Assembly: GCA_000503875.1 (NCBI GenBank)
Contig: CP006913.1
Coordinates: forward strand, 780,001-812,000
From: Candidatus Saccharimonadota bacterium
GTDB taxonomy: Bacteria > Patescibacteriota > Gracilibacteria > Absconditabacterales > Absconditicoccaceae
Direction: 5' to 3'
Length of the DNA: 32,000 nt
Below are positions 6,641-28,507 of this stretch, piece after piece. Made by a program: the position numbers and the translations under genes. The notes beneath the pieces are model-generated. The model searched no databases. It was not told the origin of the DNA and saw only the letters and a list, made by a program, of their open reading frames with translations. Position 1 is the stretch's first letter, and every line of letters starts with the position of its first letter.

Positions 6641-8131
6641 TTTTTCTTTGTCTTTTTGTTCTACAGTACTATCTTTTGAAGACAAATACTCCTTATCAGT
6701 TTCTCATAGAGAAATCTTTTTGATTATCTCTTGTTTTATTTGTTCTGCAGCGGAACTTTTTCATAAAAGTTTTATAACTTCTCAAACCAAAACATTGATC
6801 TTTTTGGTATCACCTGCTTGAATTTTCCTGACGATATCTTTCTTTTCATCAAGAACTTGATCTACCATATGAGAAAAATCCTCTCCTGAAGATTGATGTT
6901 CCAAAACATATGTTTGATAATCAAAAGCTGGATCAATCAATATCTTCTTAAGAACATCTTTTAAAAGATCTTTAGCAAACTTTTTTTCTTTGTGATATAA
7001 AAGAAGTCCTGCTATTGTTTCCACATCCAATATTTTGTATTCTTCATCAGAAATATGGTTCATAAGGATTTTAGCTATACCAAGAAGATCTCAAACCTTA
7101 TCATTGATAGCAAACAAGGTATGGGCTTTTTGGATGTTTGAAGAAAAATATTTTGATTCCAAAACCGTTAATCAAACCTCCATCAATTTTTTTTCTATTT
7201 CATAGGGCAAGAACGCATATTCAACTTCAATATCTTTTTTGAGATCAGAAATATCTATAGAAGGAATATCTGGTTCTTTGATAAATCTATAATCGTTCGC
7301 GTTTTCTTTTGTTCTCATAATCTTGATAGTTTTGGTCTTCTCATCCCATAATACCGTTAACTGATCTGTTTTCGCTTCACCAGTTTTTTCCCAATGACGT
7401 ACCTGTGTTTCTATTTCTTTGTTGATAGCATCTTTTGCAAATTTAAACGAGTTTAAGTTCTTTATTTCTGTTCTTTCATTGAGTTTTTCTTCTCCTTTTT
7501 TTCTGAGTGAAATACTAATATCAGATCTCAAATGTCCTTTTTCCATATCTGCTTCAGAAATATGCAATGATCTAACCAAGTTCTGTATTGATTCCAGATA
7601 CACAATAGCATCATCAATTCTCTTAATACTAGGTTTTGTTACAATTTCTATAAGCGCTCTTCCTGATCTATTGAAATCAACCAAAGAATACCCTTCCTTA
7701 TGGACAAGCTTTCCTGCATCTTCTTCCAAATGAATATGATCCAAATCAACCGAAAATTCAGTTCCATCGTTTCTTATACAACGAACTTCTCATCACATAA
7801 CAATAGGGTGTTCCAACTGAGTCAACTGGAATCATTTTGGTAAATCTGGATATTCATAATGTTTTCTATCCCAATCAATAATATCCAAAATTTTAGATTT
7901 TATTGCAATCCCTAGTTTTACCGTTTTTGCAATAGCTTCAGCATTTGGTTGTGGCAAAACACCTACATGTCATGTACAAATAGGACAAACATATTTGTTT
8001 GGTTCTTTACTTTCTTCATTTTTACAAGAACAAAACATCTTTGATCTCGTGTTGAGTTCAACATGTGTTTCCAATCCTATAACGGGTTCTACTCATAGAT
8101 CTTCGAGCCTCTGATCTAATGTTTTCATCAT
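4871..8131 (-). CDS. continuous code-25 ORF encoding GatB (N-terminal part) fused in frame to aspartyl-tRNA synthetase (C-terminal part)
   Basis: One frame runs from ATG 8131 to TAA 4871-4873 (1086 codons) with no TAA/TAG; the junction 6641-6781 was checked triplet by triplet. GatB motifs: '[20 protein letters not shown]', 'HLEEDAGK', 'LVGEVIKLLGKSS'. AspRS motifs: 'LVFIDLRE', '[12 protein letters not shown]', '[10 protein letters not shown]', 'GGGSIR', 'GLDRLMM'. The only former-stop-like codon at the junction is TGA 6704-6706. Confidence 0.7.
6704..8131 (-). CDS. gatB: gatB portion (Asp/Glu-tRNA amidotransferase subunit B), delimited only by TGA 6704-6706
   Basis: This alternative reading assumes the TGA terminates. 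Homology to the GatB C-terminal (YqeY-like) tail ends around '...[11 protein letters not shown]', immediately before this TGA. Confidence 0.5.
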
Positions 8132-8151: not shown

Positions 8152-9564
8152 TTATTCACACAAAATATCTAGGTTGTAAGCAAATTTCAAAAGTTCATTA
8201 TCCTTGCTATAATCTCACGTAATTTGGATTCCTGTCGGAGAATGTAATGGTAATGAAATAGTCGGTAATTTCCCAAGACTAAACCCAACCGTGTACATAT
8301 CTGACATATACATAGCGAGCGGATCGTCCAAAGTAGTTCAGATTTTTGGTGGTGTCTTTGGAGTAACCGGAGAGAGAATAAAATCTACTGCTTCAAAATC
8401 TTTTTTGAAATGTTCAATTAATTTTTCTCTTGCAATTAACGCTTTTATATAATATTTATCTAGAAATCATTGAGAAAGAACCTGGTTTCCCGAAATAATT
8501 CTTCTCTTTGTCTCTTCTGAGAATCAAAAGAATCTGGTTTCTTCATAAAGGCTTTTAAGATCTTGAACATCAGCATGTCTATATCCATATTTAATTCCAT
8601 CTATACGAGACAAGTTGGAAGCGGTTTCCGCCATAGCAATAATATAATAGGTTGCAATAAGGAGTTCATCATTAAAGAAAGTTAATTCTTTGACTGTTGC
8701 TCCCTTTTCTTGGAGTTTAGAAAAGACTGTTTCAATGCTTTTTTTAATTTCTGGATCAAGAGCTTCGCTTTCTAGGAAACTCTTATAATACCCAACTTTG
8801 ACCTTAGAAAAATCAAACGTTTCTAAACTTTCCAAGGAATGTTTTTTGTAGGAGATACTGGTAAAATCTTTTTCATCCTTACCAGCCACGGCATTCATAA
8901 TAAGCTGAATATCTGAAACTGATTTTGCTATTGGTCAAACCGTATCCAAAGATGAGGCATAGGCCATACAACCATATCTAGAAACAGCTCAATAAGTAGG
9001 TTTCAATCAAATCACTTGGTTATATCCAGCGGGTTGTCTAATAGATCCTCACGTATCTTCTCCTATAGAAAAAGTGGTAATATCTGCGCTAACGTTTGCT
9101 GCGCTTCCTCAACTTGATCACCCAGCAACTAATGTTGGATCTATCGCATTTTTTGTAGGTCAAAAATGAGAGTTCTCTGTAGTACTTCCATGTCCAAATG
9201 CATCATTATTTTCTTTCGCAATTAAGATTGCTCCTTGATCCAAAAGCTTTTCAACAACCGTTGCGGTATAAGGAGCTCTATAATTTTCCAAAATCATAGA
9301 TGATCACGTAGTGATGGTATCCTTCACCAAAAAAGTATCCTTTACTCAAAAAGGGATTCCTTCAAGATCTTTAAGTTTTTTTCAAGATTTAATTTTCTGA
9401 TCAACAAGTTTTGCCTGCTGTAGTGCACTATCTTCCAAAATAAGAATACATGAGTTCAATGTATTATCTTTTGCTTTTTTGAGTTTCTCTTTAATAAAAT
9501 CTTCACAAGAATATTTTCCTGAAAGATAGTCTTCGTGGATAGAACTAATTGTAGATGTTTTCAT
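8152..9564 (-). CDS. gatA: Glu/Asp-tRNA amidotransferase subunit A
   Basis: ATG 9564 to TAA 8152-8154, no in-frame TAA/TAG (gaps checked). The amidase signature 'AGGSSGGSAANV' has two glycines written as TGA (9109-9111, 9118-9120). Also 'GIPFGVKD' and 'LPTISLP'. Confidence 0.9.
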
Positions 9565-11280: not shown

Positions 11281-11859
11281 TTATAAAACATTTAAAATCT
11301 GGCTTAATTCTGATATTTTATCCACAAAAATAGTTCTATATCTGGATGGGATTATCATCACGTTTTCTTTAAAGACTTCTAAATAAAATTCTTTCTTCTC
11401 CTTTCTAAAACGCAGCTGTCTTTCCAACGACAACTCTCCCAGTGTCCTCAAGTTATCCAAGCAATCAAAAAGTTTAATAAACAAAATCCTCCATTCTGCG
11501 TGAATAGAGGATCTAAATTTCAAAAAATAGTCTGATTTTGGCATGGGTACTCTATTTTTATCTAAGTTACTGAGTCAATATACAATCTCAAAAATCTGGT
11601 TTCCAAAAATTCATTGAAATTGTTCGTATACGATATCTGTATCTTCCAAAATATCATGTAACAAAGCCCCGAGAACCAGCTTGGAATCGTTCACTCCACA
11701 AGAAATAAGCTCTTTCATCATCCTAAATGGATGATAATAGCCTGGCTCACCACTCAGCCTCGGTTTGCCTATATATTGCTCCCTGAGAAAGCAAAAAATA
11801 TCAGTTTGATTATTCTGATAGCACATCTGAATCTTTTGGAGACCTAAGACTTCTATCAT
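11281..11859 (-). CDS. HD-domain protein, RelA/SpoT-type (p)ppGpp hydrolase-like (small alarmone hydrolase-like)
   Basis: ATG 11859 to TAA 11281-11283 (192 aa). 'HPFRMMKELISCG...VLGALLHDILEDTD...FGNQIFEIVYGLS' matches the SpoT hydrolase-domain pattern. Confidence 0.7.
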
Positions 11860-12155
11860 GATTTCAACTTTGTTAAAAAATTATCTATAACGGATGGCTC
11901 ATATACAGGCATAGATAAGGATTCTAGAAGATGCACAATTGCTTTACTTAAAGGAATTTTTTTAAAAATAATGTCATGATACAAATTATCATAGATATAC
12001 GTAAAAAACTCATACAGTTTCTTTTGATCTTTTTCCTGCATGAGTTTTTCCTTGATAATGCTGAGGAGGAGCTTATCCATCTCTCACTTTGTGCTATTTT
12101 TGACTCTCTCTACAATTTCTTGTTTATCTAAGTTTTGGCTTACTATCTCCATCAT
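11853..12155 (-). CDS. hypothetical protein (100 aa)
   Basis: ATG 12155 to TAG 11853-11855. The last sense codon is TGA, which overlaps the next gene's ATG as ATGA. I recognise no motif. Confidence 0.5.
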
Positions 12156-12235: not shown

Positions 12236-12255
12236 AATCTATTTTCTAATAGATT
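12236..12255 (-). terminator. hairpin overlapping the stop of the NACHT-HEAT gene
   Basis: AATCTATT-TTCT-AATAGATT (8-bp perfect stem), followed on the minus strand by T-rich sequence (TTCTCTATTTTTTCCGTTTTTTTC). Confidence 0.4.
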
Positions 12256-14470
12256 GAATAAAATTTATATTATCCTTTCATCAAATCTTTCATAAAACTT
12301 CTATAAGCTTATTTATTACATAATAATCTTCATCATCTTTAAATGATTTTATAAATTCTATATTTTCTTTTCATCAAAATTCTCATAATATTTCTATTAC
12401 CACCGCTCTTTTAAAACGATTATCCGTATATTTTAAATTTTTAATCCATTCTATAGTTTCATTATTTATATTTCATCATACAATATTAATTATCATATCT
12501 TTTGTCTCTAAATACTTCTTTTCTAAGAAAGATTTAATAAATTCCATATTTTCTTTTCATCAGATTTTTCATAGGACTTCTATGAGTTTATTTATCACAT
12601 AATCATCTTCATTATCTTCAAATGTTTTAATAAACTCTATATTTTCTTCTCATCAAATCTCTCACAATATTTCTATTACAGCAGCTCTTATAACATGGCT
12701 ATGATTATATTTCAAAGATTTAATAAACTCTATATCTTTTAATCAAATCATTTCAATTATTCTATTCTTTACTTTATAATAGTTTTCTTCTGACAAAGAT
12801 CTAAGAAAATCAACATTTTCTTCTCATCAAATTTTATTCAATGTGTTAATCAAAATTTGCCTTACATTATGATTTTTATCATTTTTAAATAATTTTATAA
12901 AGTTTATATTTTCTTCTCATCAAATTTCTCATAATGTCTCTATTAAAGCCCATCTTACTCAATAAACTCTATCGTTTCTAAAGGATTTAATGAAATTTAT
13001 ATTCTCTTCTCATCAAACCTTTCATAATGTTCTTATTAGAGACTCTCTAACTGCTGAGTCTTTATCATCCTTGAATACTTTAATGAAATTTATATTCTCT
13101 TCTCATCAAATTTTTCATAATGCCTCCACCATTGAAGCTCTCAAGATCTCATCTGCATTATCATTAAATGATTTAATGAAGTTTATATTCTCTTCTCATC
13201 AAATTTCTCATAATAATTGTATTATAGAAGAAGGAATTACTTTAAAAAAATCTCACTGATCCTCAGCCAAGGATCTAATAAAAAGCATATTCTCTTCTCA
13301 TCAAATTTCTCATAAAACATTAATAATTTCAAATATTATTTCTGTATGAAGACTATTACTATAAGATTTGATAAATTCTATATTTTCTTCTCATCAAATT
13401 TTTCATAAATTCTGAATAATTTTAACATTATCATAAGGATTATTAGCTATAGATCTTGCAACTATTAAATTTTCAAGACCTCATATATTACAAAGAGCAT
13501 CAATAACAGCGTCTTTTACTAATGAAGATGTATAGTGTTTAAAAGATTTAATCAAATCAATATTTTCTTCTCATCAAATTTTTCATAATACTTTTATCAA
13601 AGGAACTCTTACACGAGGATCCTCATCATTTTTAAATGATTTAATAATGGTTATATTTTCTTCTCATCAAATTTCTCATAATGTCTCTATTAAAGAAGCC
13701 CTGACATGGCAATTTTTATCGTCTTTAAACAATTTAATAAATTTTATATTTTTTTTTCATCAAACTTCTCACAATGTCTCTATTAAAGAACATTTCACAT
13801 AGCGATTGGTATCATTTTTAAATGATTTAATGAACTTTATGTTCTCTTCTCATCAAATTCGTCATAATACTTGTATCAAAGAAGACCTGACATGACAGTT
13901 TTTGTCGTCTTTAAATGATTTAATAAATTCTATATTTTCTTCTCATCAAATTTTTCATAATCATTCAATAACAGAAATTCTTAATTCACAATTTTTCGCT
14001 TTTTTAAATGATTTAATAAATTCTATATTTTCTTCTCATCAAACATTCGATATAATTTGAATTATTTTCTTAATTGCTGAGTAATCAATATCTTCTTTGT
14101 TATAATTAGAAGCTAAGTGACCTATCCTTTTATCGTTTAAATGATTTTTTATGCCATCTAAACGATTTTTCATATCATTTAAAATAAAACTCAAAGAGGG
14201 ATTCTTATAATGTAATGATTTGATAAATTTTATATTTTCTTCTCATCAAATTTGTCATAAAATCTCAATCACAGCATGTCTTACATCAGCAAAAGGATCA
14301 TTCACAAAAGATTTAATAAAATCCACATTTTCTTGTCATCAAATTTTTCACAACGAATTTAATAAAGATAATTTCAAAGAAAGATTTTCTTTATCTTTAA
14401 GAGATTTAATGAATTCTATAGTTTCTTCTCATCAAATTTCTCCCAAAATCGTTACTAAAGAACTCAATTT
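12239..14470 (-). repeat. coding tandem repeat: about 23 HEAT-like units, 93-nt (31-aa) period
   Basis: The plus-strand core 'ttcttctcatcaaattt' recurs, for example at 12278, 12371, 12473, 12557 and 12650. Spacings are 84-102 nt, mostly 93. The translated consensus is xVRxxLIExLGxIGGEENIxFIKSFKxDxN. Confidence 0.85.
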
Positions 14471-17188
14471 TTGATAATCATCTCTTATTATAGATTTTAA
14501 AAAATCTATATATCACTGTTCTTTAAGAAACAAAGCATTTTCTATCAAATCATCTAGTAATTTAGAATCAAAAGAAATACTAGAGGTATATTTTTCAAAC
14601 AGAGAGACATCTAAAGAATATAACATATATATTATTTTATCTTTTATATTTCCATAAAAGTTTCTATTTTCATAAATATAATCTAAAAAAGTTTTTTTCA
14701 ATCCAGAATTTTCTTTTTTATTTAAAATATCTATTAAAAATTTCAATGTCCAGTTATTAACTAGCTCCAATTTATTAAAAACGACATCTTCTAAATATAA
14801 TTCTACTTCTTTGTTTATTTTTATTGATAGCTGGTTAACAAATTCTTTTGCTGCAAAATATTCTTTGAAACTTTGATGAACAAAATCGTATTCTTTATTT
14901 TCATTTTTTCTGAATATCAAGTTCAAACAAGCATCATCAGAAATTATTCAAGGATAATCTCTTTTAATATTATTAAATTGTTGTTCATCTATATTTATTC
15001 ATTCAAAAATAGATTTATACGCTAATTTTCATAAAAAATCCTTTCTTTTATCTATTATATTTTCCATTTCATTTTGTCATTCGAAAGAATTTGGATTATT
15101 AACAGAAATTTTTCTTTTACCTTGTTTATTATTTTCTCGATTTAATAGCCTTAAATCAATAATTCTTTCATATAAATCAGAAATAGTAGATATTTTCTCA
15201 ATATCTTCTCATGTATCTATCAAAAAGCATATCATACTCAAAATAAGAGGATTTTTCTCTATTCCATTTAACCATTGATTTTTCAAGAAAAGATTGAAAT
15301 TATCTAATTTTTTATCTCAATTTTCTTTATTGGCAAAATATTTTTTCACATATCAATCTATATCTTGAATTTCTTTAAGTTGTATTATATTTATTTTTTC
15401 TAAAACTTTATTTCGATCTTCATTTTTATCCTGATTTCATTTAGGAAGATATCATTTTCTGCTAGTAATAACAATTTTCCCAGAAAATTTTACTAAATGT
15501 TCAAACAAAGATTTTATTTCATATTCACTTAATAAACTCTCATCCAAAGAATCTAGTATTAATGTTTTTTCTAAATCATTATCTTTTTTATCAAAATAAT
15601 TTAATTCTATTTGTTTTATTTTAGACAATACATCAGTTGCTTTTCCAATTCAAGATAAACTTAAAAATATAGGAAAATAAGCATCACTTCAAATCATAAA
15701 ATCAACATTCTTAATATCTTCGTTAATTTTACTTAATAGAAATGATTTTCAACTTCAAGCATCTGCTTCTATATATTGAATTTTATCCCATACAAAGACA
15801 GAACGGTTTGAAATATGTCTTGAAGGAAAATCGATAGATATTCTTGTTCGAAAATCATCAGCTTCTAATTGCTTATTTCTCTCATCTATTCTTTTAGGAT
15901 ATTCTAAAAAGTCCTTTAAATATCTATCATCTCAATCAAAATTAAATTCTGGTTCTATATCTTCTCAATTAACAATTCTCATATCCAAAGATTTACTTCT
16001 TATCTCCTCCACAAGAGAATATATATTTTCATAATAATTCATTATCAACAAAAAATCTTTATTAGATTTGGCTTTATCACGAATATAACAAATAAGATTA
16101 TCTGGAAGGGTTAATTCATATTTTTTTCTAAGAGAAAATAATTCTTTAATAAAAAATTCATAAATTTTTATGTCTGGGTTGTTAGTCATAATCAAATCAA
16201 AAATTGTTTTTAACTGACTTTCTTGGTTTTGGATAAGATCTTTTGTGTTTTTTCTTACAATATCAATCTCTAGATTTCCAACCAAATTTGCCAAACAAAA
16301 AAGAGTAAGATCAATATTTCAAACCGTTAAATATTTTTCATATAATTTTGGATTTTGTTTAAAATAGGTATTTATGATATTTTGAAGTTCAAAAAGATTC
16401 AACTCTTTCTTAAAAAAAGATTCGATATATTTTCTCAAAACCTCCTCTTTTCTAAAAACACTAAAAATTTCAGCTATATTTTGGTAATTCAAGCATAATA
16501 CATCACTTTCTTTTTCATAATTTACATACTCATTATTTTTATTAATATCAAATTGCCAAATATCTCATGTATTTATTTTGTTTTTACATAATTCTATTGT
16601 TTGTCATTCTTTTTTTGTAACCTCAGAAATTCATGCATTAGATTTATGGCCTAATAATACTATATTTTTATATTTATTATAGTCTAATTTATTTTCTCAT
16701 GTAAAAGATTTTAATATTTCATTATTCGTTAATTGGAGAATATTATAAAATTGTTCTACTCTAGTAAACAATCGTCAATCCTTTATCACAATATTTCAAT
16801 CAGGTAATTGGACTTTTTCTGAAGTATCTAGTGCATGATGTTGTTTTAAAACTCATATTTCATTTTTTTTAAGTATATTTACACTTCTAACAATTCTATT
16901 TATTGGCTTTTTTTGATTTTTTCCAGAAGAATATAAAATCAAAGTATCTTCTTTGTTACATCACATTTTTTTGAGTTTAGCAGATACCTGCTCCATTTGC
17001 GCCTCTCCCATACTATGTAAATCTGCATTTCATAATTGTTTACTGTCCTTTCATCTATTTGCCTCATCTACACTTATTCCATGTCTAACAAAAAAAATTC
17101 TACAAAGTACATCTTGTGTATGGTTTTGAATATTTTCAAGAACATTCTGTTGATTTAAAGAGTCTCCTTTTGATAGTTTATTTACCAT
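12239..17188 (-). CDS. 1649-aa STAND protein: N-terminal histidine-phosphatase (SixA/PGAM-like) domain, helical linker, NACHT NTPase, about 23 HEAT (PBS-lyase type) repeats
   Basis: ATG 17188 to TAG 12239-12241. Every triplet of the frame was read and there is no TAA/TAG. Phosphatase motifs: 'RIFFVRHGIS' (17078-17086 = RHG) and 'IVLLGHKSNAG'. NACHT motifs: Walker A 'EADAGSGKSFLLS' (both G = TGA, 15749-15757), Walker B 'LILDSLDE' (15539-15562), 'KIVITSR', 'NPLILSMIC'. C-terminal repeats are 'LGxIGGEENIxFIKSFK'. Confidence 0.85.
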
Positions 17189-17266
17189 AAAAAATAATCA
17201 CCGATAAAATATCGATAGATATTATATACAAAAGACACAAAAAGTCAATTTATTTATAGAAATATA

Positions 17267-19021
17267 TTATATTTTCTTAACAATAGATAATTTTATAATA
17301 CTTGGATTAAGTTTCATATAAAAATCATAGATACTACCTTTACAAATCAAAGGAAAGTTTTCACCAGTTTCTTTTTCAATAAGAGATATCAAAGGAAGAA
17401 CTATTTTCCCCAACATTTCATTTTTATTTTTACTATAACTAGATACTTCAAATGCTTTATTTTCCAAGTCTTGTCATATATTTTCCATAAGTTTATACAA
17501 AATATTGATGGTCGTTGTTTGAGAACAAAGATCAGTAGATGTTAATTTTTTTCCATTGAGATACATTTTATTATGTATCATATCCAACAATAAACCTTGT
17601 GTGTGATTAGCGAGAATTTCATTATAATTCGATATAAAATTTTTTCATTGATTATCTTTATAATATACTTGATCTTTTTGTATATATTCAGAAAATATTC
17701 AGTTATGTATCCATTGATCAATTTTTATCCCATCAGCAGAAACACCATCAATCCAAGAAGCGTATTCTAATGCTATATCTGAATATCAAATTTCTTTCAT
17801 CTTTTGTATCACTTGAAGTATAGTGTCTCTACTTTTATTAAATTTACTTATAAAAACAAAGCTTCCTCAAATTTTAAGAAAATTTATTGGATATATAGCC
17901 AACAATTCGTTATCAATCTTTTTAAAAACATTAAAATAAAATTCAAAACTATTTGTCATATGGTTGTTCCCTTCGACCATATTAGATATATAATTATTCT
18001 CTTTTTGTGTTTGTATAAATTCATCAATAGATTGTTCATCAAAAATTTTTTCTAATATTTTTTTGAAACAAGAAAGTGTTTTAAAATTATAAAGGAATGA
18101 TAAATCTTTAAATATTTGTTTAAAACCCACATTAAAAATATTTTTAAATGGAAATTGTTTAATAATTTTTATTCATTTATTGGTTAACAATTCTTCAGCA
18201 ACCTTTTCTAAATTTTCTAATTCATGTTCATAATTACGTGATTGATGCTGTATATGTTCTACTTTATTGCTTATTCATGAAAAAACTATTCCATAATCAA
18301 GATTTAATTCATCTATATTATTTATTATTCAAAAAAAATCCTTTATCTTATAATTATATATTTTATTATCAGATAATACTGTTGGTTCTTCACTAAATGT
18401 TATTGTTGGAAGTTGTGTATTCATCATAGCAGAATAACAATTATTGCCGACAGAATTTCAATATTTAGATATTTTTTCTATTTCTAATCATAAAGCAAAA
18501 ATTTCATTAAATTCTTTACTTTGAATAAATTCGTCATAATTTTTAAAGAAATCATTAGGTATTTTCTTTAATATAACATATATTCAGGTAGCAATTAAAG
18601 AAGCCATCGTTCAAGAAAAAGCAAGACCGTGTCATCTTGGTGTTTCAGACAAAAGATTGATAGATATTCATTTATCATATCAGTTTTTTTCCAAAAAATC
18701 CAATAAAAATTCTTTTATTTTATGTTCTTGTCTATTTATATCAGCAAAATTAGTTTTATTAAATTTCTTTTCTAAAATATCAAAAAAAAAGGTATCTTCA
18801 AACTTTATTGTTTTTTCGCTTATTACATTAATTCAACAGAATGTTTTTGTGGGTATTTTTTTTCTTATATGAAGTTTATCCTTATTCTCTCAGAAACCTA
18901 AATTCCAAGCAAAACAATGATTTGCGCTTACCACCAAATCATTCTTAGCAAAAAATTTCTCATATTCAGATGCAAAATGTTTTTGTAGGGATTTGGTATT
19001 CATAGGAATTCTTTCTTCCAT
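17267..19021 (-). CDS. GHMP-kinase-like protein with a C-terminal OmpR/PhoB-type winged-helix-like domain (584 aa)
   Basis: ATG 19021 to TAA 17267-17269, every triplet checked. GHMP motif II-like 'LSETPRGHGLAFSGTMASLIATG' (18584-18652), and a later 'KIGGSFVFIS'. The C-terminus 'LLLDMIHNKMYLNGKKLTSTD...NEMLGKIVLPLISLIEKETGENFPLICKGSIYDFYMKL' follows the Trans_reg_C pattern. Confidence 0.65.
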
Positions 19022-19076
19022 AGCATATACTTAAGTATAAATGTCCAACTTATAACCATTACTACAAAAATATCAA

Positions 19077-19364
19077 TTAGATTCAGACTGTTTTTAACGT
19101 ATTATCCTGTTCTTCCAAAGCCAACTTTTTCTCTTCAATATCCAATTCCAAAATAGTTATTAATTCATCAACAGTTGTTCCTCTAAAGGATTTATGTTGA
19201 TTTTTTGCATAATAATTAGCCAAAGCTTCAGATAAATCTGAAGTTAAAGAAATAAAAATTCATTGACCATAAATTTTTGTGGTTCAAGCAATCTTTTCTA
19301 TAGCCTTAAGCTGCTGTAATTCTTCAATAACTTTTTCTATATCAATTATTTTTCTATGAAGCAT
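19077..19364 (-). CDS. small ribbon-helix-helix (CopG/MetJ-like) protein, 95 aa
   Basis: ATG 19364 to TAA 19077-19079, checked. 'GIFISLTSDLSEALANYYAKNQHKSFRGTTVDELITILELD' has a strand-helix-helix pattern. It is the first gene of the operon, 55 nt upstream of the GHMP-like gene. Confidence 0.55.
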
Positions 19365-19514
19365 AATTTCCAAAATAAGATAAATTTCTACAAAAATCTA
19401 TTAATTAGTAAATCAAAAACAAGACAAATTATTATAAATATAAAAAACACAATAGCAATTTAAAATAGAAAAGTATTATTCAAAGTCAATATAAAAAAAA
19501 CAAAAATAAAGTAG

Positions 19515-19542
19515 TTGATATCTAGTAAAAAAGTAATATAAA
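19515..19542 (+). promoter_or_regulatory. possible sigma70-type promoter for the HD-domain gene
   Basis: TTGATA (19515-19520), a 16-nt spacer, then TATAAA (19537-19542), about 30 nt before ATG 19572. Such matches are frequent in AT-rich DNA. Confidence 0.25.
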
Positions 19543-19571
19543 ATTTATTATTTACTTATTAATATTATATC

Positions 19572-20501
19572 ATGGAAATAAAAAAAGCTCCTATTTATGA
19601 TAATAATAAGAATATCTTCCAATGCATAAAATATTCAAAAGCAAAAGAAATCGTAACTGCTTTAAAAAGAACTCCTCGCCGAGACGTATATGCTAACCAA
19701 GAAAAAGTCAAAATTTATAGTACGCTTACCAAAAGATTTTTTTGATGAAATATAGAAAATAGAGAAGAATTAAGTCAATTTGTAGACGAAACGCTTGCAG
19801 ATCTCAACGACGTTAAACGAGAATCTCATACCAATGAAAAAGGATTTCTCAAAGGAACTTTGGATGAAGATGGAAATACGTGGCATCATACAAAAGGACA
19901 AAGAAAAATAGGACAAACTTTCGGAAAAATAGATATGGAAGAATGAAAATTTTCAGAAAAAGATTATGAGCTATTGTTGGCTGCATTTGATTTTCATGAC
20001 ATTTGAGAATGACCTAGATGAGACGTAGTATATGACCACAAAAACAACAATAACGAATTATTCGAAAGAAAATGTGGTGAGATAGTAATAGATAATTTAA
20101 TAAAAGATGAATGGAAAACAGAAGACAATAATAAATATATAAATGAAGCTTACGACATTAATTTTAATAAAGATCATCATCTTCATCCTTTTTTTAAAAC
20201 ATATGAAATTTTTTCTTATATAAAATGAGCTATGATTGCGACTCATAACGACGAAATCGATTATCCACATCGATTAGTTCATAATGTACTTATCAATCAG
20301 ATCAAGAAGTTACCTGAATTAAAAACAATGATCCCAAGCGCAAAGTTTTTTATAAAAGAATATGCTACAGAAATTGATTGATTATTTACTTTTGTCGAAC
20401 AATCCGATTTCTTTGAAAATGGAATTCCTGAGGGAAAATCCAAAGAAGAATACATAGATTTATTTATAAAAGCGAAATCTATTCGAGAAACAGTAAAATA
20501 A
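19572..20501 (+). CDS. HD-domain phosphohydrolase-like protein (309 aa)
   Basis: ATG 19572 to TAA 20499-20501, every codon checked, several TGA=Gly. It has 'LLLAAFDFHDIGEGPRGDVVYD' (H...HD motif) and later 'DHHLHPFF'. It is divergent from the RHH operon. Confidence 0.65.
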
Positions 20502-21337: not shown

Positions 21338-23737
21338 TTAAAAATCATAGAGCACTCTAATTCAATTAGCTGAGTTATGTAACATACGATATTCATCTAT
21401 AATTCAACTTTCATACGTACGTTGAAGCATCAACATTACCCATCCTCTTACTTCAGGCATTTTAGGATCTTCTATCATACGCATAATACCATTATCTTTC
21501 AATGCTTGAAGATGTTTAACATAATAGAATTCATTTCATTCACTTTGAGCTATATTGTACGTTTCCCCAAAAATTAATCTCGACAAAATAGTTCCAAACT
21601 GAGCTCTAGTAACTATATCATTAGGATTAAATGATTTTCATGGTTGGATTCCATCAGATTCCAATCCCATCAATCAAAGTTGACAAGCAATTTTACTATA
21701 AAATTTCATTTCAGAAGATTGATCTTCCATATCATTATATTGATCACATCATTCTTTGGCAATATCTGGATATAATCCAACAATAGTAACAGCATATTCT
21801 ACAATCATTTTTGCCAAATGCTTTCTCAATAAAGTACCTTTAATATCAGCATTTTCTATAGGACACATGGTTGTTATTCAAAGACCATAAGCAAATTGAA
21901 ATGCATCAGTAAGTTCTTGAGTATAAGGAGAATTTTCAACAGGACAAGTATCAGCTGACCCATGACCATCACTACTACAAGTATAATCATAATAACTATA
22001 AGAATCATCGCCATCAGGACAATAATCTTTGACTAAATAACTTCATCACCCTCGACCTCATCAATCCAATGATCAATGGTCAAATATTTTTTGAAGAATA
22101 AGTGTTGATCCAGAAAGGATTGCTTTAACATTATTTCCCATAATACGAAGCGATGGTGTATCAACAAAACTAACCTGGGTAGAACCAGAATTTAATTCAC
22201 TTCATTTATAGATAAACATTCCTTGATTTGTTAATCAGCAATCAAGATATCAAGTTCCCTGAGGAGACAAGGATAAAACTGGATTTAATCCACCCTGTAT
22301 TGTTAATATATTTCTCATAAAAAGCACAGAATTTGTCTTATATTGAACATATTTATCATCACAACATCAAAGCTGAGAACAACTTGGTCTTGTTACAAAA
22401 CTATAGTCTGAAATTGTTCATTGATTTCACTGCATATCACGAACAGATACACGTACACGAATAGTTCACGATGCAGGAAAATCTACATGATTAGGTATTT
22501 CGACAAACCAGTTGGGCTGTAAAGCGGTACTACTAAGACCTGAAAGATTCAACATATTTCCACTAAACACATATGGCCCATAACTTGTTCCGTTGATTCC
22601 ACTAAGCGTTACCACAATACTTCCAGAATTTACCCCAGCCCATTCATCTTGCACTCAAAATCTAATCGGAGCATCATAGGTCACAAATGTAGCATTATCT
22701 ACTGGAAATCTAGTATCAGAAATCAAGGTCGGACCCTGAGCTTGATTAAATAAAAGAGAGGTTGAAGAAAGAAATCACATACGATCTCTTACAGAAATAT
22801 TGATAGTAATAGGCTTTTCTATTCCATAATTAAACAAGGCTCATGATGGAATGGTAACGGTATAATTTTTATCAAGAAATTGCCAGGTCTTACCATTTGC
22901 AATAGCATATGTTCATCAATTAAACGTACGGTTTTGACCATTTCCTGCCAAAGTAATTTGTAATGTAGAAATATTAATTCCATATTGAGGATCTATACCC
23001 CAAATATTTCCAGTCCATTGACCACCTGTCCAAACATAAGGAACATTAGTACTAGAACCAGCATTATCTGTTAATGAAAGAGAAATTCAAGAAAGGTATG
23101 TTTGTTTAATTGCTCAGTTAATTGGCAATGCTACAGAAATAGATGGATTGTTTGTATCAGTAACACACGGTTGCTGAAGAACTCAGTAATTTCAAGTCAT
23201 AAATTGAGATTGTCTGGTAGTATTTATTATTTCTGTTCCAAAAGGAGAACTCAATGTGGTTTCTATAGTAGAATTGGGAGTACCTATTTCGCCATTATAT
23301 TCCATACCAAAAATTGTAGAATACGGAGTAGGAGAATAACGAGGGACAAAAAATACTGTTCCATACAATCCTGTTGTTCACTTGTAAGCATAAAGATTAT
23401 TTTTACGATCTATTTGTAAAATAGAAAAATTACTTCCAGTTTTCCAAGAAGGTGAAGATTCAGATGACCAATCCAAAAAAGTAGTAGTACTTGCTTCAAA
23501 TAAGGTAGTTCTAAGATCAGATGTTGAATACGAAATATGTTGTGGATCCAAAACAAGATGAAAACGACCTGCTTTAGCTCAATCAACATTAGCTTCTGTA
23601 GAAGCTTTTACCAACAATTTTTCATTACAACCTTGTTGATAAGGGTAATTAACTGATCATGTATCAAAATAATAATACTGAGAACTTACTCATCAAAAGC
23701 ATATACTCAAAACAACTATGAGATAGGCTTTTTTCAT
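21338..23737 (-). CDS. secreted surface protein A (799 aa): signal peptide, N-terminal module shared with protein D, Ig-like 'DEWAGVNSGS' domain, Gly/Cys-rich linker, three C-terminal SLH-like repeats
   Basis: ATG 23737 to TAA 21338-21340, every triplet checked. N-terminus 'MKKAYLIVVLSICFGG'. C-terminal repeats: 'LTDAFQFAYGLGITTM...LLRKHLAKMIVEYAV', 'FNPNDIVTRAQFGTILSRLIFG', 'YYVKHLQALKDNGIM'. Its start overlaps the tail of gene B. Confidence 0.75.
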
Positions 23738-24465
23738 ACAAGATCTTTATTGAAGTAAGATAAAAGCTGTTTACGATATGCTAGAACCAAAATAACAAGT
23801 ATAAGCAAGAAAAATGCTAGTACAAAAAAGATATTATTTTGTAAAAACATCCAGAAAGAAATTTTACTATATTTTTCGTAAATTTTTTGAATCGTAGAAT
23901 TAAGGGAATCTTGATAACTCATTCCTGCAAATCCACCAGAAACAACAGCAGCTGCGCTATGTTCACAAGCAGGCATATCAGAAGAAAATTTTACTTGAGC
24001 ATCACCAACTTGTTTTAATGCATCTACTCAACCAACTTTACTTAAATTAGAATCAGTTGTATTTCCTTCTGCCAGAAAATAAAGTCTTACTGTTCAATCA
24101 AGAAATCATTCTTTTTGTTCAAAATAGATTGTTCCTATTTTTCCAGATCAAATAACTCTTTCACTAGGATCAACAGTAAATCCAACAATATGAAGCAATC
24201 CATTTGATCTTGTTACTGGTGGAAGAAAATAAGGAAATATTGTTGTAGGCACAAAATCTTTATAAAGTAACGATGTTTCCATCATAAGGTCAACCGCTGA
24301 TATCTCTTCACCTTGAGTATCTACATATACATCGATAGGTACTGTACATCCATTTCCAAATGTACCATCTCCTTCAACAGAAAATGAAATATTTTGCGAA
24401 AATGAAAAGCTACCCAAAGAAATAAATCCTACCAACAAGAGAATCAGAATTTTTTTTTGTTTCAT
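23716..24465 (-). CDS. surface protein B: own ATG and signal peptide, cohesin-like domain, C-terminal TM anchor (249 aa)
   Basis: 'MKQKKILILLLVGFISLGSFSFS' is a textbook signal peptide. 'ISFSVEGDG..CTVPIDVYVDTQGEEISAVDLMMETSLLYKDF...LLHIVGFTVDP' is cohesin-like. The TM segment is 'IFFVLAFFLLILVILVLAY'. The ORF ends '..NKDLV-TGA-KKPIS-TAG'. Confidence 0.65.
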
Positions 24466-26220
24466 AATAATTTTTAAAAAAATAAATTATTGTACGATAA
24501 TAACTCAATCAACAATTGTAAAATTCAACCCTGTAATATACAATGCATTACCAGAATACACAGTTCCGTTAATTAGCGTATTTGTAGAATCATAAATTTG
24601 TACATTACCCGTCAAAACAGCTCCTGTCCATTCATATCCACACATCAAAATATCATTATTTGTTCAAGTAAGATATGGATAAGGAGAATTTATATTGGTA
24701 CCCGTTACTATAAGAATTGTTCAGGTAAAGTCATGAGATCATGCAAATGTTCCACCTAGAATATTGATATTTAAGACTTCATTACATCCAAAGAAACTAC
24801 AATCTGGTCTTGTTGTAAATGATGTAGATAATGTTCATGTATTTCCAGCAAGATCAAGTGCTATTCAAGTAATAGTAATAGTTTCATTTGATGGAAAATC
24901 CCAATTTGAATAAAACTCTACAACATATTTTCCAGAATTTCCAAGACCAGCACTTCCTCAAGACAATACAAAATTTAATTCTGATCAAGAATAGGTATAT
25001 CCTGTCAATAATTGTTCAGCTCACGACATAATAGTTGGGATAGTTATTTTTACTGTCCCTGTATTTACACCTGCCCAATCATCAGAAATAAATAATCTAA
25101 TTGCATTAGTTTTACTTGGAGAAACAAAAGTATCTGCAGATGGTAATAGACGAGATATTGTTGGATTCAATGGCGCATTAAAAGAAAACGAACTAGATCA
25201 TGTATGTATTAGTCATGTTTCATTAGGATTATCTGTTGCTTGCAAGGTAACAGTTACCAGTTTTTCTACTTCATAAGAAGCTGGTGCAGCAAAAGAAACA
25301 TTATATCATCTACGTTTACTGTTCCAAGTCAATTGATTGCGAGAACCGTCTCAAGCCCAATCAGTAACCGTCAAACTATTTCCAGATAAAATATATGACC
25401 AAGGAGAAGAACAAGTTGCACAAGCAACAGTTGCTCTGATAGTTCAGCTATTTACTCCTTCCTGATTGTCGACAGTAGCTGGGGCAGCCACATAATTCGT
25501 TAGCAACAAAGATAATCAAGAATACCAGTAATGAGATCTATTGTTGGTTGCTAGAGGCGATGGTCCAGACACACTGCCTGCCCCAGCCCAATCATATGTA
25601 GTAAATGAAATAACTTGATTGATTGGAATATTTCTAGTTCAACCTGTTGGTACCGTATTTGTGATAGTTGGATTAGTAGCATCTGGCACACAAGGAAGTG
25701 GAACAAAAGTATAGCTTGTATTATATGTTGCAGTCAAAATATCTGCTCCATTGACATCAAATCCATTAAGGGTAGCTCCATCATCGGTTGTACTAGCTCA
25801 AAACGTAATAGCTCCTCATAAACGGTCTGTAAATGATAAACTTCAGTTAGTAACATTATTCAATGTTCTAAACCCGAAATTTATGGCGCTTACATCACCG
25901 GAACTTTTTTGACCACCTGGTAAGGCTCCATAAGTTCTATATAGATTACCTATCAAAGAATATCCTTGATTTTGAGAAAATGGACTATTAATAGATCCAT
26001 GCGTTAAGAAAATATTTGATGAATCATAAGAAATTGTTGCTTCAAATGCATTATAATTTTGTCATCAAGCCAACAAAGATAAATTTCAGTTATAATTACA
26101 ATGAAGTTTTAGCTCCGAACCAGATGCTGGGAGAAAATTATAACTAGGATTTGCTGCAAAAGAAGCTCCGAACAGAGCAACAAGCATCAATCATCATCCT
26201 ATTCTTTTAAAAAGTTTCAT
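23716..26220 (-). CDS. continuous code-25 ORF covering surface proteins C and B
   Basis: The frame from ATG 26220 to TAG 23716-23718 has no TAA/TAG (all triplets read). C and B are separated only by TGA 24508-24510 and 14 AT-rich codons. See the separate C and B entries and the finding. Confidence 0.5.
24508..26220 (-). CDS. surface protein C portion: signal peptide, cohesin-like N-module, three to four Ig-like modules ('DWAGxxSG', 'LDLAGNTGT')
   Basis: N-terminus 'MKLFKRIGGGLMLVALFGASFA'; 'FEATISYDSSNIFL'; repeated 'YDWAGAGSVSG', 'TDWAGDGS', 'SDDWAGVNTGTVKITIP'. The lower bound is the TGA, not a canonical stop. Confidence 0.6.
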
Positions 26221-26243
26221 AGAAAACAAATAAAAATATAAAA

Positions 26244-28487: not shown

Positions 28488-28507
28488 AGAATATAATAAG
28501 AAATAAA

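What the first reader, a model, noticed from the sequence alone, without database searches (positions are those of the whole stretch)
12239..20501. Candidate novel STAND/NLR-like system: RHH protein, GHMP-kinase-wHTH fusion, then histidine-phosphatase-NACHT-HEAT giant, with a divergent HD hydrolase
Three co-directional minus-strand genes with short gaps (55 and 78 nt) sit between housekeeping genes.
1. A 95-aa ribbon-helix-helix protein.
2. A 584-aa protein combining a divergent GHMP small-molecule-kinase core ('PRGHGLAFSGTMAS') with an OmpR/PhoB-like winged helix.
3. A 1649-aa protein whose P-loop region has the NACHT motif set: 'GSGKS', 'LILDSLDE', 'ITSR', 'NPLILSMIC'. It is followed by about 23 HEAT repeats acting as a probable sensor.

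At its N-terminus, where bacterial NLR-like and Avs proteins normally carry a nuclease, TIR, Sir2 or protease effector, protein 3 carries a SixA/PGAM-type histidine-phosphatase domain ('FFVRHGIS...LLGHKSNAG'). A 300-aa helical region of unknown function follows.

Pairing a kinase-like gene with a phosphatase effector on a STAND scaffold suggests a phospho-metabolite or phospho-nucleotide based signalling or defence module. I do not recognise it as a described system. The divergently transcribed HD-domain phosphohydrolase (19572-20501) could be a fourth component.
Basis: partly seen in the sequence, partly recalled or inferred. Interest (0 to 1): 0.85.

Follow-up and report, generated by a model that had tools for sequence, protein, structure and literature searches.

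The report
Phosphatase-NACHT-HEAT giant with GHMP-like partner
A candidate-phylum bacterium that reads TGA as glycine carries a rapidly swapped gene for a 1649-residue NLR-like protein (histidine-phosphatase domain, NACHT switch, HEAT-repeat sensor) that is almost always encoded right after a lineage-specific GHMP-kinase-fold protein; this is a previously undescribed variant of bacterial NLR-type sensors, with function still untested.

Summary
Under code 25 the window encodes, on the minus strand, a 95-aa, a 584-aa and a 1649-aa protein at the stated coordinates.

Confirmed domain calls:
- N-terminal histidine phosphatase: profile vs PDB E=8e-11, with R-H…R…H invariant.
- NACHT: NLRC4 E=6e-13, with DSLDE and the WHD motif.
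- HEAT: Pfam E=3.5e-60, about 23 units.
- GHMP-kinase fold of the 584-aa protein: AF2 pLDDT 86, Foldseek E=6.5e-13.

Not confirmed: the RHH fold, the OmpR-type winged helix and the HD assignment.

Context changes the parts list. The conserved cassette is [Nudix, often]–[GHMP-like A]–[1–3 tandem giants]–[~100-aa protein]. The 95-aa gene is backbone, and the HD-like gene recurs in only one close relative. Neither is shown to be a component.

The N-terminal module is rare: 71 hits in 1.84 billion representatives, all in TGA-recoded Gracilibacteria/Absconditabacteria. A related genome has 93–100% identical flanking proteins, but its giant is only 53% identical and carries ankyrin repeats, and DNA identity resumes exactly at the giant's stop codon.

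Best reading: a diversifying NLR-like sensor with an unreported phosphatase N-domain and a dedicated GHMP-fold partner. A defence role is inferred, not shown.

The parts
12239..17188 (-). Giant gene, 1649 aa under code 25 (91 TGA=Gly codons): histidine-phosphatase domain, helical domain, NACHT, HEAT array.
   Evidence: ORF and translation. Identical to database protein P0034 apart from 91 W/G differences at TGA codons.
16484..17110 (-). N-terminal histidine-phosphatase (branch 1, PGAM/SixA-like) domain, aa ~27-235. It contains RHG (aa 35-37), R98 and GHKS (aa 180-183).
   Evidence: A profile of 13 diverse homologues (A7) hits PDB 3eoz at E=8.2e-11, and 43 of 45 hits are histidine-phosphatase superfamily members. 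Invariant residues are R, H, G, R and H. Weak supporting evidence comes from the Foldseek hit list and Pfam His_Phos_1 at E=0.048.
15824..16468 (-). Conserved all-helical domain of unknown function, aa ~241-455 (ELQN..N.YF...PELYEKYL...FCLANL…YYEN…SLD.R).
   Evidence: Conserved in both N-domain classes. In the AF2 model of homologue P0004 it is helical with pLDDT 65-85. No significant structural match.
14804..15802 (-). NACHT NTPase module (NBD-HD1-WHD), aa ~463-795: Walker A GSGKS, Walker B/NACHT signature DSLDE, ITSR, NPLILSMIC, FVHQSFKEYFAAK.
   Evidence: Profile A8 hits NLRC4 at E=6.4e-13 and NLRP3 at E=3.2e-12 over profile positions 9-307. Pfam NACHT matches 7 of 16 family members, best E=2.7e-10. 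Motif coordinates.
12242..14473 (-). HEAT-repeat array, aa ~906-1649, about 23 units of 31 aa. Scaffold positions are conserved; positions 9-14, 17-18 and 21-22 are hypervariable.
   Evidence: Pfam HEAT_2 E=3.5e-60 and HEAT_PBS E=5e-22. 93-nt tandem period. Per-position entropy.
17267..19021 (-). Gene 'A', 584 aa. It has a GHMP-kinase fold (aa ~1-430) and a highly conserved C-terminal domain (aa ~470-584) of unassigned fold. It is the conserved upstream partner of the giants.
   Evidence: AF2 model of homologue P0019 has pLDDT 85.9. Foldseek matches mevalonate kinase and galactokinase at E=6.5e-13 with target TM-score 0.6-0.72. Family and adjacency.
17221..17248 (-). Best sigma-70-like promoter match of the region (TTGACT-16-TATAAT, 11/12), in the 78-nt gap between A and the giant.
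   Evidence: This is a consensus match only, and the overall count of promoter-like sites is not above chance.
11853..12155 (-). Small ~100-aa helical protein at the 3' end of the cassette.
   Evidence: 100% identical in L004 and 61% in L005, with homologues in L001, L006 and L008. It follows the giants or the A/B genes in many species. Alignment.
19080..19367 (-). Real 95-aa gene of unknown fold ('RHH' unverified). It is an adjacent backbone gene, not a conserved component of the cassette.
   Evidence: Homologues at 58-70% identity. In L085 it lies in backbone synteny without A or a giant. No Pfam, PDB or hhalign support for RHH.
19572..20501 (+). Divergently transcribed 309-aa protein with an H…HD motif. 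It is an adjacent gene, not a conserved component of the cassette.
   Evidence: Pfam HD E=0.023, below the cut-off. No PDB hit. Found only in the close relative L086 at 81% identity and absent from the other loci scanned.

Best explanation
The giant is an NLR-like (STAND/NACHT) sensor-switch specific to the TGA-recoded CPR bacteria (Gracilibacteria/Absconditabacteria).

**Shown**
- A three-part architecture: an N-terminal histidine-phosphatase domain plus a conserved helical domain, a central NACHT NTPase, and a C-terminal HEAT (in paralogues, ankyrin) repeat array with hypervariable surface positions.
- The gene occurs in 1-3 tandem paralogues.
- It is replaced as a cassette between related genomes.
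- It is encoded directly after a lineage-specific GHMP-fold protein (A). The cassette usually ends with a ~100-aa protein and often includes a Nudix hydrolase.

**Inferred mechanism**
1. The repeat array binds a variable macromolecular cue, such as a phage or host-cell protein.
2. This releases NACHT autoinhibition and drives NTP-dependent oligomerisation.
3. Oligomerisation brings the N-terminal modules together and switches on the PGAM/SixA-like phosphatase. From my own knowledge, PGAM5 needs multimerisation for activity.
4. The phosphatase then removes phosphate from a protein or small phospho-metabolite to arrest growth or signal.

Protein A, with a GHMP fold whose phosphate-loop motif is poorly conserved and a near-invariant C-terminal domain, most likely acts as a ligand-sensing regulator or accessory factor of the downstream genes rather than as a classical kinase.

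The overall role is most likely conflict or immunity (anti-phage or prey/host discrimination).
For: **Domains**
- Histidine phosphatase: A7 profile hits 3eoz at E=8.2e-11, 43 of 45 PDB hits are in the superfamily, and R-H-G…R…H is invariant.
- NACHT: NLRC4 E=6.4e-13 and NLRP3 E=3.2e-12 across NBD-HD1-WHD; Pfam NACHT down to E=2.7e-10 in relatives; DSLDE fits the D[GAS]hDE signature as defined in 10.1101/2022.07.19.500537.
- HEAT_2: E=3.5e-60.
- A has a GHMP fold.

**Linkage**
- A lies directly upstream of the first giant in 6 of 6 informative loci found through the giant: window, L001, L003, L005, L006 and L088.
- It also does so in 10 of 37 A genes found through A in GTDB representative genomes. 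B-type paralogues are never followed by a giant, 0 of 26.

**Diversification**
- Tandem paralogues occur in L003, L005, L006, L009, L014 and L088.
- C-termini switch between ANK and HEAT.
- Window and L004 have flanking proteins 93-100% identical, but the giant is 53% identical with a different repeat type. DNA identity resumes exactly at the giant's stop codon.
- A is also only 58% identical in the relative L086 while backbone genes are 80-93% identical.
- The cassette has 23% GC and 85% TGA-Gly, against 32-34% GC and 27-41% TGA-Gly in the flanks.
- HEAT surface positions are hypervariable.
- A McrBC restriction system lies next to the cassette in L088.
Against: - There is no functional evidence of defence. 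PADLOC finds nothing, and most loci lie among housekeeping genes rather than in defence islands.
- The N-domain is constant across the family while the sensors vary. Kibby et al. instead describe the N-terminal effectors of bacterial NACHT proteins as highly variable.
- About half of the distant members (class ii) have lost the second catalytic His ('RHY…GNRS'). The phosphatase therefore cannot be the universal effector, and the helical domain or a partner may be.
- The AF2 model of the N-terminal region was poor (pLDDT 49.8).
- A-family genes also occur without giants (L008, L011, L012 and others).
- No shared operator-like DNA motif was found upstream of A/B genes.
- A's C-terminal domain could not be assigned to a DNA-binding fold.
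Confidence: 0.5

Rival explanations
1. The cassette is a non-immune signalling device for the epibiotic or predatory lifestyle. The NACHT-repeat proteins sense host or prey molecules, or internal state, and regulate physiology through phosphatase activity, as STAND regulators do in other bacteria. The variability then reflects host range, not phage pressure.
For: - The family is confined to obligately host-associated, TGA-recoded CPR lineages.
- Loci lie among housekeeping genes.
- The N-domain is conserved rather than swapped.
- ANK and HEAT repeats are generic protein-binding modules.
- The Vampirococcus paper notes several ankyrin proteins and a host-specialised lifestyle (PMC8080830).
Against: - Strain-level cassette replacement, tandem paralogy and compositional deviation are more typical of conflict loci.
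- McrBC is adjacent in L088.
- From my own knowledge, most bacterial NACHT proteins tested so far are anti-phage.
Confidence: 0.22
2. This is the first reader's model: a phospho-metabolite or phospho-nucleotide circuit. A is an active small-molecule kinase, Nudix hydrolases trim a nucleotide-linked precursor, and the giant's histidine-phosphatase domain binds or hydrolyses the same phosphorylated compound. That compound acts as a second messenger that gates the NACHT switch.
For: - Three phosphate-handling folds co-occur: GHMP, Nudix (Pfam E=6e-9; present in 13 of 22 giant loci) and histidine phosphatase.
- The motif 'PRGHGLAFSGT' is well kept in the A subfamily next to giants.
- Class-ii N-domains keep the phosphate-binding R-H while losing the second catalytic His. 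This fits a ligand-binding role.
Against: - GHMP motif II is degenerate across the wider family (for example 'GGRRYSFSFSAT'), and Pfam GHMP_kinases_N is below threshold in all members, matching 3 of 27 with best E=0.0067.
- The most conserved part of A is its non-kinase C-terminal domain.
- Nudix is absent from the window and from several other loci.
- No messenger-type cyclase or synthase is present.
Confidence: 0.15
3. The A-giant adjacency is an insertion hot-spot effect. A/B plus the small protein form an older, unrelated lineage-specific operon, and the giants are selfish or expendable cargo repeatedly inserted between A and the small gene, with no functional coupling.
For: - The probable ancestral units A-small and B-small exist without giants: L008, L011, L012, and 16 of 26 B genes.
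- Giants sit exactly between A and the small gene.
- The giant has its own promoter-like site.
Against: - The adjacency persists over deep divergence, with giants at only 26-30% identity.
- Only the A subfamily is followed by giants, never B: 0 of 26.
- A diverges together with the giant between related genomes, 58% against 80-93% for the backbone.
Confidence: 0.1

Closest known systems
Bacterial NLR-related NACHT proteins (bNACHT; Kibby et al., bioRxiv 10.1101/2022.07.19.500537) and antiviral STAND (Avs) proteins
   Same: Both have a three-part layout: an N-terminal enzymatic module, a central NACHT with D[GAS]hDE and a WHD, and C-terminal HEAT/ANK-type repeats. Both show paralogous expansion and strain-level variability.
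   Different: - The N-terminal domain is a histidine phosphatase. 'Phosphatase' does not occur in the bNACHT paper's main text nor in the 2026 STAND survey PMC13581612.
- The N-module is constant while the sensor varies.
- There is a dedicated GHMP-fold partner gene, with Nudix and a small protein as frequent companions.
- The family is confined to code-25 CPR bacteria.
- There is no PADLOC hit, and NCBIfam EruA scores only E=0.042.
- Defence is untested.
Animal NLRs NLRC4 and NLRP3 (solved structures)
   Same: These are the best sequence-profile matches of the central module. The matches cover NBD, HD1 and WHD, including the 'F.H.SF.E(F/Y)' WHD motif.
   Different: - The sensors are HEAT or ANK repeats instead of LRR.
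- The N-terminus is enzymatic instead of a CARD or PYD adaptor.
- The organism is a bacterium.
Histidine-phosphatase superfamily branch 1 (dPGM, PGAM5, SixA, CobC, TIGAR, PhoE; PDB 3eoz, 4emb, 6nru, 3f2i, 3mxo)
   Same: - The catalytic residues R-H-G, R and H are in the canonical order and spacing.
- There is a significant profile match.
- The beta-alpha-beta order around the motifs is as expected.
   Different: - It is fused to a NACHT protein.
- It has a long insertion between the Arg and the second His.
- The proton-donor residue was not identified.
- One clade has lost the second His.
- The substrate is unknown.
GHMP kinases (mevalonate kinase 8tfo/1kvk, galactokinase 6zfh/1wuu); non-catalytic GHMP-fold regulators such as yeast Gal3p (from my own knowledge)
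   Same: The whole GHMP fold is recovered: Foldseek probability 1.0 and target TM-score 0.6-0.72. There is a motif-II-like 'PRGHGLAFSGT' and a motif-III-like 'KIGGSFVFISK'.
   Different: - There is no significant sequence match to any GHMP family: Pfam is below cut-off, and there is no PDB hit at E<=10.
- Motif II is not conserved across the family.
- It has an extra ~150-aa, near-invariant C-terminal domain.
- It is restricted to one lineage, with several paralogues per genome.
Fungal NLRs with ANK/TPR/WD40 repeat arrays (from my own knowledge)
   Same: Both have NACHT with tandem repeats that have a conserved scaffold and hypervariable surface positions, and both have many paralogues.
   Different: - The units here are only 73-77% identical at the DNA level, not near-identical.
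- The N-terminal domains differ.
- The host here is a bacterium.

Membership tests
NACHT clade of STAND NTPases | Walker A P-loop GxxGxGK[ST] | tested here: met
   The window has 'DAGSGKS' at aa 476-482. G, G, K and S are invariant in 16 diverse relatives.
NACHT clade of STAND NTPases | D[GAS]hDE signature at Walker B, as defined in 10.1101/2022.07.19.500537 | tested here: met
   The window has 'LILDSLDES'. D and E are invariant, and the residue after the first Asp is small (S/A/G) across the family.
NACHT clade of STAND NTPases | Profile-level similarity across NBD, helical domain and winged-helix domain to bona fide NACHT proteins | tested here: met
   A8 hits NLRC4 at E=6.4e-13 and NLRP3 at E=3.2e-12 over profile positions 9-307 of 319. 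Pfam NACHT reaches E=2.7e-10 in relatives. The window protein on its own scores only E=0.011-0.023, below the cut-off.
Anti-phage bNACHT/Avs systems | Protection against phage that depends on NTP binding | not testable with these tools
PADLOC gives no hit, and NCBIfam EruA scores E=0.042, far below its cut-off.
Histidine-phosphatase superfamily, branch 1 | RHG motif with the nucleophilic His, a second Arg and a second His, in canonical order | tested here: met
   R35-H36-G37, R98 and H181 in window numbering are invariant in 13 diverse class-i domains. They are lost in part in class-ii relatives.
Histidine-phosphatase superfamily, branch 1 | Significant profile or fold similarity to solved members | tested here: met
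   A7 hits 3eoz at E=8.2e-11, and 43 of 45 hits belong to the superfamily, with CobC aligned over positions 8-194. Fold evidence is weak: the AF2 model has pLDDT about 50, and Foldseek E-values are 0.2 or higher, although about 17 of the top 50 hits are in the superfamily. Pfam His_Phos_1 on the window protein alone scores E=0.048.
Histidine-phosphatase superfamily, branch 1 | Phosphatase or mutase activity | not testable with these tools
   This needs an enzyme assay.
GHMP kinases | GHMP two-domain fold | tested here: met
   AF2 gives pLDDT 85.9 and pTM 0.86 for P0019, which is 38% identical to the window protein. Foldseek matches mevalonate kinase and galactokinase at E=6.5e-13.
GHMP kinases | Pfam GHMP_kinases_N/C above the gathering score, with a conserved motif II phosphate loop (PxGSGLGSSAA) | tested here: not met
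   GHMP_kinases_N scores E=0.0067 at 17.1 bits, below the 22.3-bit cut-off, and matches only 3 of 27 members. Motif II is variable across the family. The family profile has no PDB hit at E<=10.
OmpR/PhoB winged helix (Trans_reg_C) | Sequence or structure match to Trans_reg_C | tested here: inconclusive
   - No Pfam hit at E<=10.
- No PDB hit.
- The order of AF2 secondary-structure elements (beta-hairpin, three helices, beta-hairpin) is compatible.
- The C-terminal domain could not be fold-searched on its own.
Ribbon-helix-helix (95-aa protein) | Match to RHH/CopG/Arc/MetJ profiles | tested here: not met
   No Pfam hit, no NCBIfam hit and no PDB hit. hhalign against Arc, CopG and MetJ is no better than against ubiquitin. 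The fold itself was not modelled.
HD phosphohydrolases (309-aa protein) | H…HD…D metal-binding motif and a Pfam HD match | tested here: inconclusive
   An 'H…FHDIGE' motif is present, but Pfam HD scores E=0.023, below the cut-off, and there is no PDB hit.
HEAT repeats | Pfam HEAT_2 or HEAT_PBS above threshold, in tandem units | tested here: met
   HEAT_2 scores E=3.5e-60 over 11 stretches and HEAT_PBS scores E=5.4e-22. There are 21-24 units of 31 aa.

The most novel reading that the evidence does not exclude
The cassette is a self-contained small-molecule immune or signalling pathway unique to code-25 CPR bacteria.

- The GHMP-fold protein A, together with the Nudix hydrolase, makes or remodels a phosphorylated metabolite.
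- The giant's histidine-phosphatase-like domain is the receptor and terminator of that signal. It is catalytic in class-i proteins and binding-only in class-ii proteins.
- NACHT activation would then integrate a macromolecular cue at the HEAT/ANK array with a phospho-metabolite cue at the N-terminus.
- The conserved helical domain would act as the true effector or adaptor.
Probability: 0.12. Interest if true: 0.85.

Novelty: new variant of a known kind. Interest (0 to 1): 0.62.

Why it matters
- **Defence in CPR bacteria.** CPR bacteria with ~1-Mb genomes are generally thought to be poor in defence systems. These genomes nevertheless spend 5-12 kb on tandem, fast-diversifying NLR-like genes.
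- **A new output for NACHT proteins.** A histidine-phosphatase N-domain would be a new output or regulatory chemistry for bacterial NACHT proteins.
- **A new accessory logic.** The conserved GHMP-fold partner, with Nudix and a small protein, suggests an accessory logic not seen in described bNACHT or Avs systems.
- **A practical warning.** Translations with the wrong code hide these domains. For the same protein, HEAT_2 falls from E=3.5e-60 with TGA=Gly to E=1.2e-12 with TGA=Trp. Surveys of defence systems probably under-count such systems in recoded lineages.

Tried and rejected
1. **Structure prediction of the window's own giant.** I used a substring of homologue P0004 instead. The model was poor (pLDDT 49.8), so its Foldseek list counts only as weak corroboration.
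2. **Single-sequence Pfam, NCBIfam and PADLOC scans.** They gave only sub-threshold hits for His_Phos, NACHT, GHMP and HD. These calls were resolved only with deeper family profiles.
3. **OmpR/PhoB winged helix in A.** Pfam, the PDB profile search, local hhalign against PhoB and OmpR with controls, and Foldseek against the viral library were all negative. The C-terminal domain could not be fold-searched alone because the GHMP hits fill the PDB list.
4. **RHH fold for the 95-aa protein.** All tests were negative.
5. **Shared operator motif upstream of 81 A/B genes.** Only promoter-like words were enriched.
6. **HD-like and 95-aa genes as cassette members.** Both were rejected on context.
7. **Mevalonate-pathway reading (GHMP plus IDI-like Nudix).** Considered and dropped. 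Motif II is degenerate, the conserved C-terminal domain is non-enzymatic, and Nudix is often absent.
8. **Literature.** No paper in the held library links NACHT with a histidine phosphatase or with Gracilibacteria/Absconditabacteria. Absence from this library is not proof of novelty.

Full report

The window is 29% GC and TGA is recoded. Table 11 yields three ORFs over 150 aa, while tables 4 and 25 yield 31 tightly packed ORFs. TGA=Gly (code 25) is shown directly by homologues that were called with TGA=Trp. They carry Trp at the Walker-A glycines: 'GWSWKS' in P0004 and 'DWWSGKS' in P0005.

- the giant at 12239-17188 (-), 1649 aa, with 91 TGA codons;
- a 584-aa gene at 17267-19021 (-);
- a 95-aa gene at 19080-19367 (-);
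- a 309-aa gene at 19572-20501 (+).

All quoted motifs are present. The window comes from a 139-kb contig of a sediment metagenome (ENA ERZ936476 / SRR944699, PRJNA167727). Database protein P0034 is the window's giant with Trp at all 91 TGA positions.

**2. Domain calls for the giant**

Single-sequence scans confirmed only HEAT (HEAT_2 E=3.5e-60). His_Phos_1 scored E=0.048, NACHT E=0.023 and NCBIfam EruA E=0.042, all sub-threshold, and PADLOC found nothing. I therefore collected relatives. Six came from the 5.8-billion-protein search, and many more came from loci found through the neighbouring gene.

- **Histidine phosphatase.** A profile of 13 diverse N-domains (A7) has R-H-G, L..G, R and H invariant. 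It hits the PGAM-family structure 3eoz at E=8.2e-11. Of its 45 PDB hits, 43 are histidine-phosphatase superfamily members (dPGM, PspA, TIGAR, CobC over positions 8-194, a SixA-like protein, PhoE, PGAM5). The N-domain is therefore a branch-1 histidine phosphatase.
- **NACHT.** A profile of 16 diverse central regions (A8) hits NLRC4 at E=6.4e-13 and NLRP3 at E=3.2e-12 across NBD-HD1-WHD. Seven of the 16 members hit Pfam NACHT, best E=2.7e-10. The window's 'DSLDE' fits the D[GAS]hDE signature that separates NACHT from other STAND clades (definition read in 10.1101/2022.07.19.500537). The WHD motif 'FVHQSFKEYFAAK' aligns with the NLR motif.
- **Helical domain.** Between the two lies a conserved helical domain, aa ~241-455, of unknown function.
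- **HEAT array.** It has 21 clear 31-aa units plus 2-3 degenerate ones. The scaffold positions are conserved and positions 9-14, 17-18 and 21-22 are hypervariable. The DNA period is 93 nt at 73-77% identity.

The AF2 model of the N-terminal 450 residues of homologue P0004 was poor (pLDDT 49.8). The model's Foldseek list has no significant hit but is enriched in histidine phosphatases, about 17 of the top 50. I count this only as weak corroboration.

**3. The 584-aa protein (A)**

It belongs to a family of about 587-aa proteins found only in Absconditabacteria, Gracilibacteria and SR1. Sequence methods fail on it. Pfam GHMP_kinases_N matches 3 of 27 members, all below the cut-off, and the family profile has no PDB hit at E<=10.

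AF2 with a 26-sequence alignment gave a confident model: query P0019, called with the correct code, pLDDT 85.9 and pTM 0.86. Foldseek matched mevalonate kinases and galactokinases at E=6.5e-13, probability 1.0 and target TM-score 0.6-0.72. The GHMP fold is therefore confirmed.

Membership in the kinase family in the functional sense is not. Motif II ('PRGHGLAFSGT' here) degenerates to, for example, 'GGRRYSFSFSAT' in relatives. The most conserved part of the protein is the C-terminal ~150 residues. That domain has a beta-hairpin, three helices and a beta-hairpin, which is compatible with a winged helix. No test supports an OmpR/PhoB assignment.

**4. Context: what the unit really is**

I translated all related loci with code 25 and scanned them with family HMMs. 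The recurrent arrangement is: [Nudix X1/X2, in 13 of 22 giant loci] – [A] – [1 to 3 tandem giants] – [~100-aa helical protein].

- **A-giant adjacency.** A is directly upstream of the first giant in 6 of 6 informative loci that were found through the giant (window, L001, L003, L005, L006, L088). Among A genes found independently in GTDB representative genomes, 10 of 37 are directly followed by a giant. None of 26 B-type paralogues is; B is followed by the small protein in 16 of 26.
- **Other A-like subfamilies.** More divergent A-like genes pair with a TM plus HExxH protein.
- **A without giants.** A-small and B-small units exist without giants (L008, L011, L012). The giants therefore look like cargo inserted between A and the small gene.
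- **The window's cassette.** The window lacks a Nudix.
- **The 95-aa gene.** It is real, with homologues at 58-70% identity. In L085 it sits in the same backbone synteny as here (surface-protein cluster, Exo_endo_phos) with no A or giant within 10 kb. It shows no RHH signal.
- **The HD-like gene.** It recurs only in the close relative L086 and has only a sub-threshold HD hit.

Neither of these two genes is a conserved component.

**5. Rarity and distribution**

An exhaustive HMMER search of 1.84 billion representatives with the N-domain-plus-helical profile found 71 proteins at E<=1e-3, of which 50 are at E<=1e-10. Every long hit carries the module at its extreme N-terminus and has 2-7% Trp, meaning it was called with TGA=Trp. 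The short hits are fragments. The family therefore appears confined to TGA-recoded CPR bacteria.

Relatives fall into two N-domain classes. Class i has RHG and GH(K/S)S, as the window does. Class ii keeps 'RH(Y/L)' but has lost the second His ('GNRS'), so it is probably non-catalytic.

**6. Signs of diversification**

- L004 shares an asparaginase at 98.8% identity, HD_4 at 93% and the small protein at 100% with the window. Its giant is only 53% identical and ends in ankyrin repeats instead of HEAT.
- At the DNA level, window and L004 become about 95-100% identical exactly at the giant's TAG stop codon.
- In L086, from the same sample as L004, backbone proteins are 80-93% identical to the window's but A is 58%. 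A and the giant therefore diverge together.
- The cassette has 23% GC against 32-34% in the flanks. It uses TGA for 85% of Gly codons in the giant and 55% in A, against 27-41% in the flanks.
- One locus places the cassette next to McrBC.
- A strong promoter-like site (11/12) lies in the A-giant spacer. The overall count of such sites is at chance level.

**7. Mechanism**

*Shown:* the domain architecture, the gene linkage, the paralogy and the cassette replacement.

*Inferred:*
1. The repeat array recognises a variable macromolecule.
2. NACHT-driven oligomerisation follows.
3. Proximity activates the PGAM/SixA-like phosphatase. PGAM5's dependence on multimerisation is from my own knowledge.
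4. Dephosphorylation of a protein or metabolite gives the output.
5. A acts as a ligand-sensing regulator or accessory factor.

The main weaknesses are as follows:
- There are no functional data.
- Class-ii proteins lack a complete active site, so the helical domain or a partner may be the real effector.
- A's DNA binding is unproven, and no common operator was found.

They are listed with their tests.

**8. Comparison with what is known, and novelty**

The giant passes the NACHT membership tests and has the three-part layout of bacterial NLR-related proteins. Three features have no described counterpart in what I could search:
- the histidine-phosphatase N-domain;
- the constant N-module paired with variable sensors;
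- the dedicated GHMP-fold, Nudix and small-protein companions.

'Phosphatase' occurs zero times in the bNACHT paper's main text and in the 2026 STAND survey. No paper in the library links NACHT with these phyla or with histidine phosphatases. I rate it a new variant of a known kind.

**9. Verdict**

- two proposed components are not shown to belong;
- one component in the window had been missed, and one recurs in related loci only.

The finding is a lineage-restricted, diversifying NLR-like cassette worth experimental follow-up. The defence role and the phosphatase-as-effector role remain inferences.

Noticed in passing
window 4871-8131 (-), with GatA at 8152-9564 (-): A single 1086-aa ORF fuses GatB (GatB_N, GatB_Yqey) to a complete AspRS (OB fold, tRNA-synt_2, GAD). 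This covalently joins the amidotransferase B subunit to the aspartyl-tRNA synthetase.
   Followed up: partly
window 12239-19021 compared with the flanks: The giant uses TGA for 85% of its Gly codons (91 of 107) and A uses it for 55%, against 27-41% in housekeeping genes. GC is 23% against 32-34%. The cassette is a compositional outlier within its own genome.
   Followed up: partly
P0034 (= window giant translated with TGA=Trp): For the same protein, Pfam HEAT_2 falls from E=3.5e-60 (TGA=Gly) to E=1.2e-12 (TGA=Trp), and NACHT and His_Phos hints vanish. Public protein sets translated with the wrong code hide domains in recoded lineages.
   Followed up: partly
window 21338-29554 (-); L085 1047-8169; L086 189-5070: This is a cluster of four paralogous secreted proteins (799, 577, 747 and 348 aa) plus a 249-aa protein. 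Pfam finds nothing for the one paralogue scanned (the 799-aa protein). The cluster is conserved at 46-91% identity in related Absconditabacteria. These may be cell-surface proteins.
   Followed up: no
window 11853-11859: The small cassette gene ends inside the start of the HD_4 (RelA/SpoT-type HD) gene at 11281-11859, with overlapping ATGATAG. This suggests translational coupling, and the same overlap occurs in L004.
   Followed up: no
L039 2221-3723, L041 11607-13088, L065 12605-14044, L066 4599-6032, L070 11689-13191: Divergent A-like GHMP-fold genes, sometimes 2-3 in tandem, are followed by a conserved ~490-aa protein with an N-terminal hydrophobic segment and an 'HE.GH' zinc-protease-like motif. 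This is a third pairing for the GHMP-like family.
   Followed up: partly
L005 18620-21748; L071 12366-15602: These are further aminoacyl-tRNA-synthetase fusions in the same lineage. In L005 an aldehyde-dehydrogenase domain is fused to a class-I LysRS. In L071 a 1079-aa protein reads by eye like a LysRS-type synthetase with a long extra C-terminal region (not scanned).
   Followed up: no
L088 617-4754: A McrB (AAA_5, McrB_lid) and McrC pair lies immediately upstream of the A-giant-Nudix-giant-giant cassette. It is the only recognisable defence neighbour seen.
   Followed up: partly
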